3,773 bases of DNA from a virus (IMGVR_UViG_2690316115_000029); one strand, 5' to 3'; shown: positions 1 through 3,773, counted from the first letter of the stretch. The notes: generated from the letters alone by a model not told the origin. Numbers and translations are program-made.

Positions 1-1230
1 ATGAGCAGAGCACTTAACAAACTGAGCGATACACAGCTGAGGAAAATCAACGGCACACCCGCCCAAAAAACAGCCTTTCTTAATGACGGTGGAAACCTGA
101 GCGTCAGGCATTCAACCAGTGGCCTTTTAACCTGGTATTTCACTTACAGGGCCGGAACGGGAAGGGGGGCACCACCGGAACGCATTAAGCTGGGAAATTA
201 TCCTGATCTGAGCCTGAAATCAGCCAGGGAAAAAGCCGCCCAGTGTCGCGCATGGCTGGCAGAGGGGAAAAATCCACGTCATGAGCTTAATTACACCGTA
301 CAGGAAGCGTTAAAGCCGGTAACGGTTGGCGATGCGCTCACCTACTGGCTTGAGTCGTACGCAAAGGAAAACCGCGTGGATTATGCCGCCCTGAAAAAGC
401 GCCTTAATAATCACGTAATACAGCACATTGGTGCTATGCCGCTGGATAAATGCGAGCTACGGCACTGGCTGGCCTGTTTTGACCAGGTGGCAAAGCGAAC
501 GCCTGTTACTGCCGGATTCTTGCTACAGACGTGCAAACAGGCGCTTAAGTTCTGCCGGAGGCGGCGCTATGCAATCAGCAACGTTCTTGATGATATGAGT
601 GTGGCGGACGTTGGGAAAAAACCGGATATAAGCGAGCGTGTCTTAAGCACCAAAGAACTTGGCGAATTATTGCAGGCACTGGACAAAAAAATATTTTCCC
701 CTTACTACGTCGCACTAATCCGCCTCCTGATTGTTTTCGGATGCCGGACGGTAGAACTGAGGTTATCGGAGATCAGCGAGTGGGATTTTACCGAAATGCT
801 CTGGACCGTGCCGAAAGAACACAGCAAAACGAAGGTGGCAATATTCCGGCCCATACCGGAAGCAATACTGCCGTTCGTCACGCAGCTGGTGGAGCAGAAC
901 AGGCACACGGGCTTATTGCTGGGGGAAGTGAAACAGGAAACAAGCGTGTCGCAGTACGGCAGATTAGCGCACAGGAGGCTAAAACACCCTCACTGGTCAC
1001 TGCATGACATCCGGCGCACCTTTACAACGATGCTGAACGATTTAGGCGTGGATCCTCACGTCGTGGAGCAGCTTACAGGTCATCAGATGCCAGGGATGCA
1101 ACGAGTCTATAACCATTCCCGTTATCTGGATGCGAAACGTGACGCGCTGGATATGTGGACGGAGCGGTTAGGGATACTGGCGGGAACACATGAAAATGTA
1201 ACCACATTGCCAATAGCCAGAGAAATATAA
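1..1230 (+). CDS. int: Tyrosine-type site-specific recombinase (integrase, P4-like domain architecture)
   Basis: 409-codon ORF from the track, stop TAA at 1228-1230. N-terminal arm-type region (LSDTQLRK...WYFTYRAG...KLGNYPDLSLKSAREKA...WLAEGKNP) resembles integrase N-terminal DNA-binding domains. C-terminal catalytic motifs are visible: GCRTVELR (box I Arg), HDIRRTF (His-x-x-Arg), LTGHQ, and VYNHSRY (nucleophile Tyr region). The ATG is at window position 1, so the true start and any upstream att site or promoter cannot be judged. Confidence 0.93.
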   Translation: MSRALNKLSDTQLRKINGTPAQKTAFLNDGGNLSVRHSTSGLLTWYFTYRAGTGRGAPPERIKLGNYPDLSLKSAREKAAQCRAWLAEGKNPRHELNYTVQEALKPVTVGDALTYWLESYAKENRVDYAALKKRLNNHVIQHIGAMPLDKCELRHWLACFDQVAKRTPVTAGFLLQTCKQALKFCRRRRYAISNVLDDMSVADVGKKPDISERVLSTKELGELLQALDKKIFSPYYVALIRLLIVFGCRTVELRLSEISEWDFTEMLWTVPKEHSKTKVAIFRPIPEAILPFVTQLVEQNRHTGLLLGEVKQETSVSQYGRLAHRRLKHPHWSLHDIRRTFTTMLNDLGVDPHVVEQLTGHQMPGMQRVYNHSRYLDAKRDALDMWTERLGILAGTHENVTTLPIAREI

Positions 1231-1257
1231 TTTTTTTTGCGATTTTTCAGGATGCGG

Positions 1258-1317
1258 ACAACGTGAAACAACGAGACACAACGACGAACAACAAGGAACA
1301 AAATGGAACAACGGGTT
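1258..1317. repeat. Six tandem 10-bp direct repeats, consensus ACAACGnGnA, in exact 10-bp register
   Basis: Read directly: ACAACGTGAA, ACAACGAGAC, ACAACGACGA, ACAACAAGGA, ACAAAATGGA, ACAACGGGTT starting at 1258, 1268, 1278, 1288, 1298 and 1308. The array begins 28 bp after the int stop. Function is unknown. Confidence 0.8.
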
Positions 1318-1332
1318 AAAAATCAGCCATCG

Positions 1333-1470
1333 TAATAACCATTTGATTTTTATAGGTGTACTGTTTTTTTATACACTGGCGAATCACTCTTAAAAATATG
1401 TAAAAAAGGCGTAAAAGTAAAATTTTATGCCTTTGCATCATAATGAATTAAAAGAGTTTTTATTCTCATT
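1333..1470 (+). promoter_or_regulatory. AT-rich putative promoter region for the alpA-like gene (not mapped)
   Basis: Strongly AT-rich stretch between the repeat array and the alpA leader. It contains TTGATT at 1343-1348, several TATA-like hexamers, and an IHF-consensus-like match (AATCAA-N4-TTA on the minus strand, 1336-1348). No -35/-10 pair with canonical spacing could be fixed by eye. Confidence 0.3.
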
Positions 1471-1513
1471 CCCCCTGCTTCTGTAAAACGACCGCCGCCA
1501 GTGTTTGCCATTC

Positions 1514-1566
1514 CACAAACACCCTGACACAATCCGACACAACCCAACCCAATAATCCACCCAATG
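1514..1566 (+). repeat. CA-rich, G-poor leader with GACACAA direct repeats 10 bp apart, upstream of the alpA RBS
   Basis: GACACAA occurs at 1526-1532 and 1536-1542. CCCAAT occurs at 1548-1553 and 1560-1565. Only 3 G in 1511-1570. Lies directly upstream of the AAGGGGG Shine-Dalgarno of the alpA-like gene. Confidence 0.6.
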
Positions 1567-1595
1567 ACTCTTTAAGAAACAACAAAGGGGGAATT

Positions 1596-1784
1596 GTGTT
1601 AAGCACAGATCGCTTTATACGTGAAAAAGAATGTCAGCAACTTACAGGCCTGAGCCGCTCATGTCGGTACCGCCTGGAAAAAGCCGGACAATTCCCATCA
1701 CGGCGTAAGCTGGGCGGTCGTTCCGTTGGCTGGTCTTTATCCGAAGTTCTGGCATGGAAGGACAGCTGCGAGGCAGTTCACTAA
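1596..1784 (+). CDS. alpA: AlpA-family prophage regulator / excisionase-like helix-turn-helix protein
   Basis: 62-codon ORF with GTG start at 1596, preceded by a strong SD (GGGGG at 1587-1591, 4-nt spacer). Stop TAA at 1782-1784. Sequence carries the AlpA/Vis-type pattern: HTH QQLTGLSRSCRYRLEKAGQFP followed by RRKLGGRSVGWSLSEVLAW. Position immediately downstream of an integrase fits this family. Confidence 0.85.
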   Translation: MLSTDRFIREKECQQLTGLSRSCRYRLEKAGQFPSRRKLGGRSVGWSLSEVLAWKDSCEAVH

Positions 1785-1790
1785 TCAGGC

Positions 1791-1809
1791 TGGCGGCACA
1801 CAGCCGCCA
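1791..1809 (+). other. Perfect 7-bp stem / 5-nt loop hairpin 7 nt after the alpA stop, no U-tract
   Basis: TGGCGGC (1791-1797), loop ACACA, GCCGCCA (1803-1809). Followed by CCCATCCACTAAT, so it is not a canonical intrinsic terminator on either strand. Confidence 0.5.
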
Positions 1810-1836
1810 CCCATCCACTAATACAGAGATCTAACC

Positions 1837-3255
1837 ATGAATACTGGATATTCTCCCGAACAAGGGCGGGGCTTCGTTCGTCCTGAAAAACAGAATCTGC
1901 AAAATTTTGCCGAAATTATTCCGGTTATTTCCGGCCTTACTGGCGGGAGTGAAACCAATATTGTTAACGCCAGAGCGTTGCAGATGTTTGATGATAAAAA
2001 GGGAGTAAATTTAACTTACACCCCTGACGGCAATCAGAATATGAGCATTATCTCTGAGTCAGGTTTCTACAAACTAATAAAAACAAAAAGCGCCCCGTTG
2101 CCGGAGCGCCTTTGTGAACAATTAACCAACTGCGCAAAAAATGAATCTGAGCAGTGGGATTATATCAACCATGTGGAGAAGCGCCACAATTGCCGAATAA
2201 CGGGCAAAACAAAGGCCACCCGCTACGGTGGCCCCTCGACACAAGCTACACGTTATCCCCAACGCATGAGCATTGCCAACAATGCCACATTTGCGGCTGG
2301 TGGGCAATGCAATCAGTCTGGTTCAGTTCGTTGCCATACCTGCAATGAGCGCTTTTCCCTGTACTCTTTAAGGAATTGCTCAAGGGCAAAAGCACATGGC
2401 GCGAATCTTTCTGATTCATGCTCTATCTTTCTGCGCCGTCTTTTCCGTGCCGGTGATAATGTTTTGGTCAATTCTTTATCGGTCATTGTGTTGTCCTGCA
2501 TAGCAATGCGCCGTAATACCTTACACCACGGCGCTGATGGTGATTACTCTGGTTCTTTGGTCTTGCGGCGCTGGAGTTCTTCACGTGCGACAGTGACGAG
2601 CTGCCCGATCTCCTCGGCGGCTTTGATTCCGAGTTTTTCCACCTGCGCCAGTGCATCGAGCGAAGAAACCAGGGGATTTTCTCCACTTCCTTCTGCCTGG
2701 CGCCGGGCGATCTCACCGCGTACAGCCGTAACTATAAAATTCGCTTTAGTTTCCCCTGGCTGTAGGGATGCCTCAATGCCACTCACTACTTCATGTGGAA
2801 ATCTGGCATTCAGTTGCTGTGACTTATTGTTAACAGAACTCCTGGACATGTTTGCACCTCCCATTAATAACGGGATGCAGTGTAATACAAAAGTGAATAC
2901 CAAAAAAGACTTGAAATGGTATTCACCTAAATGTAATGTGAATACCACAAGTGCTGATACATGCAATTCAGCAATTGAAACGACGAAGCCCCGCACTGTT
3001 GGAGCAGTAACGGGGCTTCTAACCACCAACGATAACGAGAGTATCGAGGTAGCTATGAGAAATCATACCACACACCCGCAAGGGCGGGACTCGCACAACC
3101 TGAATAAATACATCTGGCGTTTTATCGCCCTGAGCACTGCACAACCGCGCGTGATTACCATTGAGGCCACCAGCGAACAGGAAGCACGCCAGCAATCTCC
3201 GGCTGGCTGCGTGATGGTATTTGCTGCCCGTATTCGTCAGGGGGTAGGCTTATGA
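1837..3255 (+). CDS. Long open frame with Bro-N-like N-terminal domain; only the first ~110 codons look coding (probable truncated gene or remnant)
   Basis: 472-codon ORF from the track, ATG 1837 with no convincing SD. Residues ~50-100 (FDDKKGVNLTYTPDGNQNMSIISESGFYKLIKTKSAPLPERL) resemble the conserved core of Bro-N antirepressor-type domains (D-D-x-K-G ... G-x-Q-x-[ML]-x-[IV]-I-x-E-S-G-[LF]-Y-x-L-I ... S-x-P). From about codon 120 the translation is Ser/Cys/Arg/Ala-rich low complexity. It runs antisense through a minus-strand terminator (2203-2235) and two better-supported minus-strand genes. Confidence 0.3.
   Translation: MNTGYSPEQGRGFVRPEKQNLQNFAEIIPVISGLTGGSETNIVNARALQMFDDKKGVNLTYTPDGNQNMSIISESGFYKLIKTKSAPLPERLCEQLTNCAKNESEQWDYINHVEKRHNCRITGKTKATRYGGPSTQATRYPQRMSIANNATFAAGGQCNQSGSVRCHTCNERFSLYSLRNCSRAKAHGANLSDSCSIFLRRLFRAGDNVLVNSLSVIVLSCIAMRRNTLHHGADGDYSGSLVLRRWSSSRATVTSCPISSAALIPSFSTCASASSEETRGFSPLPSAWRRAISPRTAVTIKFALVSPGCRDASMPLTTSCGNLAFSCCDLLLTELLDMFAPPINNGMQCNTKVNTKKDLKWYSPKCNVNTTSADTCNSAIETTKPRTVGAVTGLLTTNDNESIEVAMRNHTTHPQGRDSHNLNKYIWRFIALSTAQPRVITIEATSEQEARQQSPAGCVMVFAARIRQGVGL
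2203..2235 (-). terminator. Rho-independent terminator for leftward transcription
   Basis: GGCCACC (2214-2220), loop CGCTAC, GGTGGCC (2227-2233). On the minus strand the stem is followed by TTTGTTTTG (plus-strand AAAACAAA at 2206-2213). No T-run follows it on the plus strand. Confidence 0.6.
2313..2501 (-). CDS. Small basic hypothetical protein (57-62 aa), second gene of the leftward cassette
   Basis: Track ORF MQDNTMTDKELTKTLSPARKRRRRKIEHESERFAPCAFALEQFLKEYREKRSLQVWQRTEPD. It starts 42 bp downstream of the Arc-like stop and ends about 80 bp before the minus-strand terminator. The internal ATG at 2486 has an AGGA 7 nt upstream and may be the real start. Against it: weak RBS at 2501 and several rare codons (AGA, CGG, ATA, TTA). 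Confidence 0.3.
   Translation of the reverse strand: MQDNTMTDKELTKTLSPARKRRRRKIEHESERFAPCAFALEQFLKEYREKRSLQVWQRTEPD
2544..2849 (-). CDS. Arc/Mnt-type ribbon-helix-helix DNA-binding protein (putative repressor), 101 aa
   Basis: Start chosen at ATG 2849 (residue 61 of the 161-codon track ORF) because GGGAGGTG lies 5 nt upstream; the track start at 3029 is TTG with no RBS. Product MSRSSVNNKSQQLNARFPHEVVSGIEASLQPGETKANFIVTAVRGEIARRQ... matches the Arc/Mnt N-terminal pattern (beta-strand N-x-R-[FW]-P-x-E-V, then two helices; compare P22 Arc NLRWPREV). Stop TAA at 2544-2546. Confidence 0.7.
   Translation of the reverse strand: MSRSSVNNKSQQLNARFPHEVVSGIEASLQPGETKANFIVTAVRGEIARRQAEGSGENPLVSSLDALAQVEKLGIKAAEEIGQLVTVAREELQRRKTKEPE
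2881..2946. promoter_or_regulatory. Operator-like repeats in the divergent control region: GTGAATACC twice direct, once inverted
   Basis: GTGAATACC at 2893-2901 and 2938-2946; its reverse complement GGTATTCAC at 2918-2926. TGTAAT at 2881-2886 and 2932-2937. The nearest copy is 44 bp upstream of the Arc-like start codon. Promoters for both divergent units must lie in 2850-3054, but no hexamers were confidently assigned. Confidence 0.55.
2985..3019. other. Long imperfect hairpin in the divergent intergenic region
   Basis: GAAGCCCCG (2985-2993) pairs with CGGGGCTTC (3011-3019). Inner ACTG (2995-2998) pairs with CAGT (3005-3008). No clean U-tract on the plus strand; only a weakly T-rich tail on the minus strand. 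Confidence 0.45.
3055..3255 (+). CDS. Small hypothetical protein (66 aa), candidate first gene of the rightward operon
   Basis: ATG 3055 with GAGG 5 nt upstream. Product MRNHTTHPQGRDSHNLNKYIWRFIALSTAQPRVITIEATSEQEARQQSPAGCVMVFAARIRQGVGL. Its TGA stop (3253-3255) overlaps the next ATG (3252) in an ATGA arrangement. It is the 3' end of the 472-codon frame, so it may be an artefact of that open frame. Confidence 0.35.
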   Translation: MRNHTTHPQGRDSHNLNKYIWRFIALSTAQPRVITIEATSEQEARQQSPAGCVMVFAARIRQGVGL

Positions 3256-3485
3256 GCCAGGAAATCACACTACAACAGGCAGCAGAACGCGCCCACCAAA
3301 TCGAAGTTATTTGCGCACTGGCAGAGGATTACCCTGGCATGATGACCGACAGCGAATCAGGGGCAATCATCGGCTTACTTAAACGCCTTAGCGGTGAGGT
3401 CTGCGTATTCCTGAGCGATGAACAGGAAAGAAGAACGCTTATTTCTAACGAAAAAAAATGCGGAGGGGTACACCATGTGCAATAA
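3252..3485 (+). CDS. Hypothetical protein (77 aa)
   Basis: Track ORF; ATG 3252 preceded by AGGGGGTAGG (3239-3248). Composition is ordinary and protein-like. The last 11 nt overlap the next gene. No family recognised. Confidence 0.55.
   Translation: MSQEITLQQAAERAHQIEVICALAEDYPGMMTDSESGAIIGLLKRLSGEVCVFLSDEQERRTLISNEKKCGGVHHVQ
3451..3458 (+). repeat. A8 homopolymer at the junction of the 3252 and 3475 ORFs
   Basis: Read directly (aacgAAAAAAAAtgcgg). In the 3252 ORF it encodes E-K-K (gaa aaa aaa). The downstream ORF is in the +1 frame relative to it. Confidence 0.9.
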
Positions 3486-3717
3486 CATCCGTCCGGACGC
3501 AGCCGCCGCCGCACTCACTACGCTGATGCACGCGCTTATTGATATTGAATGCACGGCAGAGCTTGCACAAAAGGAAGAACGGGAGGAATACACATTGTTC
3601 GCCCTGGAATGTATCCGATACATCGCAACGCGGTCGCTGAATGACGCTAAAAATATTCTTGTTGCTGATTGTGAAAATGGGGGGGGGTTATGCGTGATGA
3701 TCGTTTTAATTCCCTGA
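3475..3717 (+). CDS. Hypothetical protein (80 aa); start moved to the internal ATG with an RBS
   Basis: Track ORF 3418-3717, but ATG 3418 has no SD whereas ATG 3475 has GGAGGGG (3462-3468) 6 nt upstream. Product MCNNIRPDAAAAALTTLMHALIDIECTAELAQKEEREEYTLFALECIRYIATRSLNDAKNILVADCENGGGLCVMIVLIP. Stop TGA at 3715-3717. Confidence 0.5.
   Translation: MCNNIRPDAAAAALTTLMHALIDIECTAELAQKEEREEYTLFALECIRYIATRSLNDAKNILVADCENGGGLCVMIVLIP
3679..3687 (+). repeat. G9 homopolymer doubling as Gly codons of the 3475 ORF and as the SD of the 3690 ORF
   Basis: Read directly (aaaatGGGGGGGGGttATG). Encodes G-G-G in the 3475 ORF, and lies 2 nt upstream of ATG 3690. Confidence 0.9.
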
Positions 3718-3773
3718 AACAAGAATTTTCCGGCGTTCCTGATGATGCGGCTGATGCGCTTTCGTCAATATCT
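3690..3773 (+). CDS. Hypothetical protein, 5' end only (runs off the window)
   Basis: ATG 3690 directly after a G9 run that serves as SD. Reads MRDDRFNSLKQEFSGVPDDAADALSSIS to the window end. Overlaps the 3' end of the preceding ORF by 28 nt. Confidence 0.4.
   Translation, partial: MRDDRFNSLKQEFSGVPDDAADALSSIS

What the first reader, a model, noticed from the sequence alone, without database searches (positions are those of the whole stretch)
3055..3773. Compact rightward operon of four small overlapping ORFs with RBSs embedded in upstream genes
Successive ORFs (3055-3255, 3252-3485, 3475-3717, 3690-end) overlap by 4, 11 and 28 nt, each with an SD inside the preceding gene. This tight translational coupling is typical of phage or satellite early-regulatory operons. 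None of the four products matches a family I recognise, so they are candidates for uncharacterised small regulators or host-takeover proteins.
Basis: partly seen in the sequence, partly recalled or inferred. Interest (0 to 1): 0.4.

Follow-up and report, generated by a model that had tools for sequence, protein, structure and literature searches.

The report
Early operon of a capsid-forming phage satellite
The four small overlapping genes are real and open the replication operon of a known kind of E. coli phage satellite (a capsid-forming PICI); the first belongs to the Icd/Kil family of phages P1 and P4, so the finding is largely ordinary, with two unusual details.

Summary
Observation confirmed.

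The window is the left end of an EcCIEDL933-type capsid-forming PICI next to roxA. Contig L095 is 99.97% identical over all 3773 bases. It continues with ORF4 (73 aa), a 77-aa ORF, DUF4222, a RepA-type helicase, SSB, PerC, capsid, protease, portal, connectors, HNH, TerS and TerL.

ORF1 is not family-less. It is an Icd-like protein (NF033153, 69.9 bits), as are P1 Icd and the P4 65-aa ORF I take to be Kil. As in P4 eta/kil, it is the 3' cistron nested in frame in a 472-codon ORF (1837-3255). That ORF starts just after alpA and runs antisense through a divergent ribbon-helix-helix repressor gene. The same long open frame occurs in about 52 of 94 related loci.

ORF2-4 are conserved (pN/pS 0.4-0.5, PHROG families) but have no assignable function.

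The 28-nt ORF3/ORF4 overlap is one state of a hypervariable poly-G tract (G7-G11). G7 and G10 fuse the two genes.

This is a known kind of element. Interest is modest.

The parts
1..1230 (+). Tyrosine integrase (409 aa), left end of the island next to roxA
   Evidence: Pfam Arm-DNA-bind_3 5e-18 and Phage_integrase 6e-17. roxA lies immediately upstream in L001, L094 and L095.
1596..1784 (+). alpA (62 aa), the master activator of Gram-negative PICIs
   Evidence: PF05930 Phage_AlpA 3e-18. An alpA mutation abolishes helper-phage induction and transfer of EcCIEDL933 (bioRxiv 10.1101/2022.09.08.507074).
1837..3255 (+). Eta-like long ORF (472 codons). The N-terminus is half of a Bro-N domain. The middle is an antisense read-through of two minus-strand genes, the operators and the leader hairpin. 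The C-terminus is ORF1.
   Evidence: 1 stop in this frame between alpA and ORF1, against 24-28 in the other + frames; chance of openness about 6e-10. The same alpA-to-Icd open frame of 300-577 codons is in about 52 of 94 loci. Relative L020 has a full Bro-N domain (54.3 bits). P4 has the equivalent 214-codon ORF with a Phage_ASH domain. The P4 eta/kil mechanism is summarised in PMC10111431.
2313..2486 (-). Small minus-strand ORF (57-62 aa), function unknown
   Evidence: phrog_21027 1.6e-15. Annotated as hypothetical in L001.
2544..2849 (-). YlcI/YnfO-family protein (101 aa) with a ribbon-helix-helix-like N-terminus; candidate immunity repressor, divergent from the operon
   Evidence: NF041551 60.7 bits against a cutoff of 30; phrog_6522 2e-45; weak PF07704 match at 0.008. 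The gene and the repeats are swapped as a block between relatives; homology to most relatives starts only at 2977.
2893..2947 (.). Three copies of GTGAATACCA (2893-2902 and 2938-2947 direct, 2917-2926 inverted); candidate operators in the divergent promoter region
   Evidence: Inverted repeats I3 and I4, 10 nt, 100% complementary. Other immunity types carry their own different repeats at the same place. Protein binding is inferred, not shown.
2985..3027 (+). Conserved leader hairpin (2985-3019) followed by TCTAACCACC (3018-3027)
   Evidence: Leader 2946-3075 folds at -40.4 kcal/mol, z = -5.2. The hairpin is present in 77 of 88 loci as 34 distinct sequence variants of the 60-nt hairpin region. 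6 of 8 predicted pairs show compensatory changes. No Rfam family matches.
3030..3046 (+). Second small hairpin, CGATA-loop-TATCG, abutting the ORF1 Shine-Dalgarno sequence
   Evidence: MFE fold. The stem is kept and the loop varies among leader variants.
3055..3255 (+). ORF1: Icd/Kil-family protein (66 aa), nested in frame in the long ORF
3252..3485 (+). ORF2 (77 aa), an optional cassette gene of unknown function
   Evidence: phrog_1478 3e-28. Present in 19 of 88 loci; replaced by X1 or absent in the others. pN/pS 0.44. No Pfam, NCBIfam, PADLOC or meaningful PDB match.
3451..3458 (+). A8 run at the ORF2/ORF3 junction
   Evidence: A8 in 18 of 19 loci and A7 in 1. A7 fuses ORF2 to ORF3 (P0008, 221 aa). 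It serves as a stable-homopolymer control for the poly-G tract.
3475..3717 (+). ORF3 (80 aa in this G9 state); predicted helical hairpin, function unknown
   Evidence: phrog_5146 2e-14; matches positions 1-77 of the 154-aa phrog_2512. pN/pS 0.50. Low-confidence AF2 model: helices 7-31 and 37-67.
3679..3687 (+). Hypervariable poly-G tract (G9 here). It doubles as the Shine-Dalgarno sequence of ORF4 and sets the ORF3 C-terminus or the ORF3-ORF4 fusion.
   Evidence: Lengths G7-G11 over 88 loci. Loci with more than 1 kb of identical flanks differ in tract length. Every state is found on tens to more than 1000 contigs. A G-run also precedes ORF4 when the upstream gene is X1.
3690..3773 (+). ORF4, first 28 codons (73 aa in the near-identical contigs L094 and L095)
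   Evidence: phrog_24341 6e-15; matches positions 78-104 of phrog_2512. Full length seen in L094/L095 at 10216-10437. pN/pS 0.41.

Best explanation
The four ORFs are real genes at the junction between the 'Bro/immunity zone' and the 'replication zone' of an EcCIEDL933-type capsid-forming PICI integrated next to roxA.

Shown:
- ORF1 is an Icd/Kil-family cistron. It is followed by small conserved genes (ORF2, ORF3, ORF4, a 77-aa ORF), then DUF4222, a RepA-type helicase, SSB, PerC and a full capsid and packaging module.
- ORF1 is nested in frame at the 3' end of a 472-codon ORF. That ORF begins 53 nt after alpA and stays open through two antisense genes, a set of repeats and a conserved leader hairpin.

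Inferred, by analogy with P4 eta/kil and P1 c4-icd-ant:
- In the quiescent island, the divergent ribbon-helix-helix protein (2544-2849, minus strand) binds the three GTGAATACCA repeats and shuts the internal rightward promoter.
- Any transcript that does start there carries the hairpin leader. It is translated from ORF1, and the overlapping stops and starts pass ribosomes on to ORF2-4 and the replication genes.
- After a helper phage induces alpA, transcription from upstream enters the long ORF. Translating it from end to end keeps Rho off the RNA and carries RNA polymerase across the repressor gene and operators. The replication operon is then expressed regardless of immunity.

ORF2-4 are small acidic helical proteins. 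They sit where P4 carries epsilon, orf151 and orf106. They are most likely accessory replication-control or helper-directed proteins, but no function can be assigned.

The poly-G tract is mainly the ribosome-binding site of ORF4. Its slippage changes only the tail of ORF3, or joins ORF3 to ORF4 through what a low-confidence model predicts is a disordered linker. That would explain why all three frames persist.
For: Identity of the element:
- L095 is 99.97% and L094 99.87% identical over the whole window, and both carry the full gene set.
- L002 and L003 have the same layout.
- The cf-PICI definition and the alpA requirement come from 10.1101/2022.09.08.507074.

ORF1 family:
- NF033153 scores 69.9 bits for ORF1, 52.6 for P1 Icd and 76.1 for the P4 ORF. 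Pairwise E to P1 Icd is 2e-6.
- The ATGA overlap matches P1 icd/ant1.

Nested long ORF:
-. The open frame also runs through the isrK and C4 RNA genes in C4-type relatives and exists in P4.
- The published P4 mechanism: Eta is coupled to the alpA homolog, Kil is a truncated form of Eta, and Eta translation prevents termination (PMC10111431).

Repressor and operator module:
-. The module is swapped as a block, with different repeats in each immunity type.

Hairpin covariation.

Coding status of ORF2-4.

Poly-G tract:
- Lengths and variability.
- The length distribution is unimodal with no 3-nt periodicity.
- The interrupted, stabilised tracts lie in the G8 frame.
- A G-run precedes ORF4 in a second upstream context.
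- The junction lies in a segment of pLDDT below 50 between two helical hairpins.
Against: - No transcript, promoter or protein data exist for this element. The consensus promoter scan found nothing in 2400-3773, so the internal promoter is unplaced.
- Repressor function of the YlcI/YnfO protein rests on position, a weak RHH-type Pfam hit (E 0.008, below cutoff) and adjacent repeats.
- About 40% of related loci do not keep the long frame open, so read-through translation cannot be indispensable.
- The window's own Bro-N domain is only a half domain (14 bits, below cutoff). The long ORF could therefore be a decaying gene kept open partly by chance and by shared third-codon positions with the antisense gene.
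- The O3-O4 structure model has low confidence (pLDDT 54.5).
- No function is established for ORF2-4. They have no detectable homology to P4 epsilon or cnr, to each other (hhalign below 1%), to defence systems or to solved structures.
Confidence: 0.7

Rival explanations
1. One reading: four independent, translationally coupled small regulators or host-takeover proteins of a P4-like or PICI early operon, with none belonging to a known family.
For: Satellite context and tight overlaps are confirmed. ORF2-4 indeed have no Pfam, NCBIfam, PADLOC or meaningful PDB match.
Against: ORF1 is a clear Icd/Kil-family member and is nested in a 472-codon ORF. ORF3 and ORF4 are fused in 27 of 88 relatives. 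No P4 late genes or primase are present.
Confidence: 0.2
2. ORF3 and ORF4 are one gene (about 145-154 aa, phrog_2512). The window carries a frameshifted, possibly defective or mis-sequenced copy, and the 28-nt overlap is an artefact of that frameshift.
For: G7 and G10 tracts give one fused ORF in 27 of 28 such loci. Fused proteins are common, for example on 258, 212, 152, 261 and 237 contigs. phrog_2512 is a 154-aa family covering both halves.
Against: - Split forms are at least as common: the G8 form is on at least 1000 contigs, and G9 forms on 126, 97 and 36 contigs.
- The length distribution is unimodal around G8, with no enrichment of the in-frame lengths.
- The four interrupted, stabilised tracts (GGGGGTGG and G8TGG) are in the split G8 frame.
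- ORF4 always keeps its own ATG and G-run Shine-Dalgarno, even behind a different upstream gene.
- Separate PHROGs exist for each half.
- The A8 run 220 nt upstream is stable in the same assemblies (18 of 19), which argues against general homopolymer sequencing error.
Confidence: 0.15
3. The poly-G tract is a purpose-built switch: either phase variation at the DNA level, or ribosomal or transcriptional slippage. It lets a population or a cell make both split and fused ORF3/ORF4 products, tuning satellite behaviour.
For: - The tract is the fastest-changing site. Pairs with 1.0-1.3 kb of identical flanks differ in length, and 7 of 10 identical-flank groups are mixed.
- G/C runs of 7 or more are otherwise rare: 20 in 955 kb of fetched loci.
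- A second poly-G (G5-G9) interrupts a downstream ORF variant in a few relatives.
Against: - There is no ON/OFF logic. ORF4 keeps its own start in every state.
- There is no 3-nt periodicity or frame bias.
- A G-run at this spot is explained more simply as a Shine-Dalgarno sequence.
- No expression data exist.
Confidence: 0.15
4. The small ORFs are chance ORFs in a non-coding leader of the replication genes.
For: They are short (66-80 aa), and ORF2-4 have no domain-database matches beyond PHROGs.
Against: PHROG matches have E-values of 1e-14 to 1e-45. pN/pS is 0.39-0.50 with the frames kept across 19-87 divergent loci. Gene order is conserved. Exact proteins occur on up to 1000 or more contigs. 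Each start has a Shine-Dalgarno sequence.
Confidence: 0.02

Closest known systems
EcCIEDL933 and other capsid-forming PICIs (cf-PICIs) of Enterobacteriaceae (Alqurainy et al.; bioRxiv 10.1101/2022.09.08.507074)
   Same: int and alpA at the left end, a rightward unidirectional operon, a rep gene, then major capsid, protease, portal, head-tail connectors, HNH, TerS and TerL. Near-identical contigs L094 and L095 show this whole set.
   Different: The papers read here treat the small genes between alpA and rep as uncharacterised. They mention no Icd-like gene, repressor or poly-G tract. Direct identity to EcCIEDL933 itself was not measured here.
P4 eta/kil nested genes with CI RNA immunity (Forti et al. 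1999, as summarised in PMC10111431)
   Same: A long 'Bro-network' ORF starts right after the alpA homolog and ends at the stop of a nested, in-frame Icd/Kil-family cistron. An internal promoter and the immunity determinants lie inside the long ORF. Replication genes lie downstream.
   Different: The window has no C4/CI or isrK/seqA RNA. In their place are a divergent ribbon-helix-helix gene, a small ORF on the opposite strand, repeats and a hairpin. The downstream replicase is a RepA helicase, not the alpha primase. The late genes are capsid and packaging genes, not sid, delta and psu.
P1 immI operon (c4 - icd - ant1/2)
   Same: An Icd-family first cistron overlaps the next gene by ATGA. The P1 record says icd is apparently required for expression of ant.
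   Different: There is no c4 RNA here and no Ant downstream. Ten or so close relatives of this operon do have an Rfam C4 RNA (70-82 bits) in front of the Icd-like gene.
Four-zone organisation of Gram-negative PICIs (Integration, Bro, Replication, Late; PMC10111431)
   Same: The window maps onto the Integration zone (1-1784), the Bro zone (1837-3255) and the start of the Replication zone (3252 onwards).
   Different: That paper describes immunity RNAs inside Bro genes. A protein-repressor cassette encoded antisense inside a still-open Bro ORF is not mentioned in the passages read.

Membership tests
Capsid-forming PICI (cf-PICI) | int and alpA at one end, co-oriented with most genes | tested here: met
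   int 1-1230 and alpA 1596-1784, both on the + strand.
Capsid-forming PICI (cf-PICI) | Own replication module | tested here: met
   DUF4222, AAA_25/RepA helicase and SSB follow in L094/L095, which are 99.9% identical over the window. L002 and L003 show the same.
Capsid-forming PICI (cf-PICI) | Encodes its own capsid and packaging proteins (capsid, protease, portal, connectors, HNH, TerS, TerL) | tested here: met
   All are present in L093-L095 and L097. They lie outside the window itself.
Capsid-forming PICI (cf-PICI) | No tail or lysis genes; size about 10-15 kb | tested here: inconclusive
   No such genes appear up to TerL, but the fetched loci end about 100 nt after TerL.
Capsid-forming PICI (cf-PICI) | alpA-dependent induction by a helper phage, and transfer with helper tails | not testable with these tools
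   Experimental property, shown for EcCIEDL933 in 10.1101/2022.09.08.507074.
Icd/Kil family (NF033153) | Profile score above the curated cutoff | tested here: met
   69.9 bits against a cutoff of 25. P1 Icd scores 52.6 and the P4 ORF 76.1.
Icd/Kil family (NF033153) | First cistron after the immunity determinant, overlapping the next gene | tested here: met
   ORF1 follows the divergent repressor, repeats and leader. It overlaps ORF2 by ATGA, as P1 icd overlaps ant1.
Icd/Kil family (NF033153) | Inhibits cell division or kills the host when expressed | not testable with these tools
   Needs an expression experiment.
P1/P4-type antisense-RNA immunity (Rfam C4, isrK) | C4/CI RNA gene upstream of the Icd-like cistron, with target sites at its ribosome-binding site | tested here: not met
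   No C4 or isrK match in the window even at E up to 1. No complement to the hairpin loop is found elsewhere in the window. Relatives L014, L029 and L037 do have C4 (70-82 bits) and isrK.
P4 eta/kil nested-gene arrangement | Long ORF from the alpA homolog to the Kil stop, in the same frame as Kil | tested here: met
   Window 1837-3255. About 52 of 94 loci are open for 300-577 codons starting 1-40 nt after alpA. P4 has a 214-codon ORF, 8168-8812.
P4 eta/kil nested-gene arrangement | Translation of the long ORF suppresses premature termination | not testable with these tools
   Known for P4 (PMC10111431). Only inferred here.
P4-like satellite | sid, delta, psu and the alpha primase-helicase | tested here: not met
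   None appear among the genes of L093-L097. P4 layout used for comparison.
Phase-variable contingency locus | Hypermutable simple repeat | tested here: met
   G7-G11 among 88 loci, and different lengths between loci with more than 1 kb of identical flanks.
Phase-variable contingency locus | Repeat length switches a gene on and off | tested here: not met
   ORF4 keeps its own ATG and Shine-Dalgarno in every state. Only the ORF3 tail or the fusion changes. There is no frame bias in the length distribution.

The most novel reading that the evidence does not exclude
In this lineage of satellites the P4-style eta/kil device has been re-engineered. The RNA immunity determinants (CI/seqA) inside the long ORF are replaced by a protein-repressor cassette encoded on the opposite strand. 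Selection nevertheless keeps a 400-plus-codon frame open across that antisense gene, its operators and a covarying leader hairpin, purely so that ribosomes can escort alpA-initiated transcripts into the replication operon. In addition, the hypervariable poly-G at ORF3/ORF4 may act as a heritable switch between split and fused proteins.
Probability: 0.3. Interest if true: 0.55.

Novelty: new member of a known kind. Interest (0 to 1): 0.3.

Why it matters
The operon sits in roughly 30% of complete E. coli genomes, yet it is annotated inconsistently:
- 'Icd-like' genes of 66-116 aa.
- 'Icd-like pseudogenes' that are really the 5' part of an eta-like ORF.
- ORF3 and ORF4 called as one, two or three genes depending on a poly-G length.

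Recognising the P4 eta/kil logic in cf-PICIs gives a concrete, testable model for how AlpA induction bypasses island immunity. It also points to a candidate island-encoded repressor, which the PICI papers read here do not mention.

The small ORF2-4 proteins remain candidates for replication control or helper interference.

None of this changes the picture of what kind of element this is.

Tried and rejected
- Rfam scan of the window at E up to 1 gave only chance-level hits (RsaJ, mir-499). No C4 or isrK.
- The sigma-70 and terminator consensus scan found no promoter-like site in 2400-3773. A hand-read TTGAAA-17-TAATGT at 2911-2939 fails the tool's criteria and is not claimed.
- Phage DNA search found nothing, and the phage protein search gave a single hit (a 16.5-kb 'phage' that is probably a satellite).
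- Paralogy among ORF2, ORF3, ORF4 and O5 is rejected: hhalign probabilities are below 1%.
- Solved-structure sequence searches gave nothing meaningful.
- The AF2 model of fused ORF3-ORF4 is too poor (pLDDT 54.5) for a fold search.
- PADLOC defence models gave no hits.
- The search for a partner complementary to the hairpin loop found none.
- pN/pS cannot decide which strand codes in the antisense overlap. The third codon positions coincide, and only 3 distinct sequences were available.
- The genome-contig scan with the ORF3-ORF4 profile returned only 2 loci (Shigella flexneri and E. ruysiae), so the family looks narrow at that stringency.
- The idea that every junction carries a slippery homopolymer is rejected. 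The ORF1-ORF2 fusion in L093 is an ordinary 1-nt A insertion, and the A8 run is stable.
- Literature searches for 'Icd-like' and for poly-G phase variation in E. coli prophages found nothing specific.

Full report

Yes. The sequence shows the following:
- ORF1: ATG 3055 to TGA 3253-3255.
- ORF2: ATG 3252 to TAA 3483-3485.
- ORF3: ATG 3475 to TGA 3715-3717.
- ORF4: ATG 3690, running off the end of the window.
- Overlaps of 4, 11 and 28 nt.

Each start has a purine-rich Shine-Dalgarno-like sequence: GAGG 3046-3049, G5 3240-3244, GGAGGGG 3462-3468 and G9 3679-3687.

The ORFs are not chance ORFs:
- All four hit PHROG families (E 1e-45, 3e-28, 2e-14, 6e-15).
- The exact ORF1 and ORF2 proteins are on at least 1000 contigs each, and the exact ORF3 on 36.
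- DNA relatives occur in 1591 of 5426 complete E. coli genomes.
- Across 19-87 related loci, pN/pS is 0.39-0.50 with the frames kept.

**2. What element is this?**

The window starts with a tyrosine integrase (1-1230) and alpA (1596-1784).

Looking up the exact ORF3 protein gave contigs L095 and L094. These are 99.97% and 99.87% identical to all 3773 bases. In them the gene order is:
- roxA, int, alpA;
- a 101-aa gene on the minus strand;
- ORF1 (66 aa), ORF2 (77), ORF3 (80), ORF4 (73) and a 77-aa ORF;
- DUF4222, an AAA_25/RepA helicase, an 83-aa ORF, SSB and PerC;
- major capsid, S78 protease, portal, head closure, connector, HNH, TerS and TerL.

This is the gene set that defines capsid-forming PICIs such as EcCIEDL933. 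That island's induction needs alpA (10.1101/2022.09.08.507074). RefSeq relatives L002 and L003 show the same layout at the tqsA site.

The element is a cf-PICI, not P4-like in its late genes.

**3. ORF1 is an Icd/Kil-family protein.**

- NCBIfam NF033153 scores 69.9 bits against a cutoff of 25.
- P1 Icd itself scores 52.6. The two align at 35% identity over 43 residues (E 2e-6).
- The 65-aa ORF at the end of the P4 leader region scores 76.1 bits. From memory, and consistent with PMC10111431, this ORF is kil.
- P1 icd overlaps ant1 by ATGA, exactly as ORF1 overlaps ORF2. The P1 record notes that icd is apparently required for ant expression.

**4. ORF1 is nested in a 472-codon ORF.**

The frame of ORF1 is open from 1823 (first ATG at 1837) to 3255. 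Between the alpA stop and the ORF1 ATG it holds one stop, against 24 and 28 in the other two + frames. The chance expectation for such openness is about 6e-10.

The open frame runs antisense through two minus-strand genes, the intergenic repeats and the leader hairpin.

This is not peculiar to the window:
- In about 52 of 94 related loci the frame ending at the Icd-like stop is open for 300-577 codons. It opens 1-40 nt after the alpA stop, across quite different intervening sequences.
- These include relatives in which the frame runs through isrK and C4 RNA genes.
- P4 has the same thing: a 214-codon ORF from the end of its alpA-like ORF88 to the kil stop.

The N-terminus is a Bro-N domain in relative L020 (54.3 bits). 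In the window it is only half a domain (14 bits). In P4 it is a Phage_ASH domain.

PMC10111431 summarises the P4 mechanism of Forti et al. 1999:
- An internal constitutive promoter gives a transcript that is prematurely terminated through CI/seqA.
- Kil is a truncated form of Eta.
- Translation of full-length Eta from the upstream late promoter prevents termination, so transcription reads on into the downstream genes.

The middle of the window's long ORF translates to Ser/Cys/Arg-rich sequence typical of antisense reading. This fits an ORF kept for ribosome transit rather than for its protein product.

**5. Immunity module.**

The window has no C4 or isrK RNA. Instead it has:
- a divergent 101-aa YlcI/YnfO-family gene (2544-2849, minus strand; NF041551 60.7 bits; weak RHH-type Pfam hit);
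- a further small minus-strand ORF (2313-2486);
- three perfect copies of GTGAATACCA at 2893-2947.

Homology to most relatives begins only at 2977. Each leader type carries its own different repeats upstream. This is what one expects of exchangeable repressor/operator specificity modules. About ten of the 88 loci carry the C4-type module in front of the same Icd-ORF3-ORF4 genes.

The first conserved block is a hairpin (2985-3019) followed by TCTAACCACC:
- The leader folds with z = -5.2.
- The hairpin is present in 77 of 88 loci, as 34 distinct sequence variants of the 60-nt hairpin region.
- 6 of 8 predicted pairs show compensatory changes.

Its role (mRNA stabiliser, attenuator or Rho-loading context) is unknown. 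C4-type leaders and P1 also have a hairpin followed by a TTAACC-like motif at the same position. A second small hairpin (3030-3046) abuts the ORF1 Shine-Dalgarno sequence.

**6. ORF2-4.**

- Gene order in 88 loci is Icd, then [ORF2, or X1, or nothing], then ORF3, ORF4, [77-aa ORF], DUF4222 and RepA. ORF2 is an optional cassette, present in 19 of 88.
- None has a Pfam, NCBIfam, PADLOC or meaningful PDB match.
- They are not paralogues of one another.
- The ORF3-ORF4 family seems confined to Escherichia and Shigella.
- A low-confidence model shows two helical hairpins joined by a disordered linker.

By position they correspond to P4 epsilon, orf151 and orf106, which lie between kil and the replicase. 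My best guess is replication-control or helper-directed accessory proteins, with low confidence.

**7. The poly-G tract.**

The ORF3/ORF4 overlap lies on a G-run, and its length sets the outcome:
- G9 (the window): a 28-nt overlap.
- G8 (L003): the ORF3 stop sits inside ATGCGTGA, an 8-nt overlap.
- G7 (L002): one fused 148-aa ORF.

Over 88 loci the tract is G7 in 24, G8 in 35, G9 in 19, G10 in 4 and G11 in 2, and it is interrupted in 4. G7 and G10 are fused in 27 of 28 loci.

The tract changes faster than anything around it. Loci with 1.0-1.3 kb of perfectly identical flanks differ in tract length, and 7 of 10 identical-flank groups are mixed.

Sequencing error is unlikely as the main cause:
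- Each state recurs on tens to more than 1000 contigs.
- An A8 run 220 nt upstream is A8 in 18 of 19 of the same assemblies.

The length distribution is unimodal, with no 3-nt periodicity. The stabilised interrupted tracts are in the split G8 frame. A G-run also precedes the ORF4 ATG when a different gene (X1) lies upstream (G6 in L001, G9 in L092).

The simplest reading is that the G-run is ORF4's ribosome-binding site, and that slippage in it is nearly neutral. A designed switch or recoding site is not excluded.

**8. Verdict.**

- The thing is the early (Bro/immunity-to-replication) operon of a known satellite family, using a known P4/P1-type Icd/Kil leader cistron.
- Two details are new relative to what I could read. 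The first is the protein-repressor cassette embedded antisense in a still-open eta-like ORF. The second is the hypervariable poly-G that makes ORF3/ORF4 split or fused.
- These details are worth a note but do not make this a new kind of system.

Noticed in passing
window 1258-1312 and 1519-1553: Six ACAAC-containing units at exact 10-bp spacing lie right after the int stop. A second phased ACAC/ACAA set lies just upstream of alpA. They are candidate AlpA or Int arm-type binding arrays in the int-alpA intergenic region.
   Followed up: partly
window 1789-1835: A GC-rich hairpin (GGCTGGCGGC...GCCGCCACC) followed by TCTAACCA lies directly before ATG 1837 of the long ORF. It mirrors the hairpin plus TCTAACCACC before ORF1 (3018-3027). 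No canonical Shine-Dalgarno sequence precedes 1837.
   Followed up: partly
L030, L033, L043, L054, L060, L069 (about 330 nt downstream of the ORF3/ORF4 tract; e.g. L069:3808): A second poly-G run (G5-G9) lies inside a variant of the 77-aa ORF that follows ORF4. It splits or restores that gene depending on its length.
   Followed up: partly
L093:9765 and L098 (equivalent to window about 3238): One lineage carries a 1-nt A insertion that fuses the Icd-like ORF1 and ORF2 into a 143-aa protein. At least 15 similar places were not shown. Cluster members of 153-155 aa named 'Icd-like' were also seen.
   Followed up: yes
L029, L037, L071: These have mosaic leaders: a hairpin-type leader and a truncated Icd N-terminus, then isrK and C4 RNA genes, then a second complete Icd-like domain. 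All of this lies within one uninterrupted reading frame of 437-577 codons.
   Followed up: partly
L002:8257-8704 and L003:8134-8685: RefSeq annotates the 5' part of the long ORF as an 'Icd-like protein, pseudogene, missing C-terminus'. This looks like a mis-handling of the eta-like ORF that overlaps the antisense YlcI/YnfO gene.
   Followed up: partly
L001:12001-22486: An island 99.2% identical to the window over 1-3245 has a different right half. ORF2 is absent, an extra 121-aa gene X1 is present, and the late region is shorter (capsid, decoration protein and connector only). This shows module shuffling exactly at the ORF1 end.
   Followed up: partly
window 2313-2486 (-): A second small minus-strand ORF (phrog_21027, 1.6e-15) lies downstream of the YlcI/YnfO gene, also inside the long + strand ORF. 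Its function is unknown.
   Followed up: no
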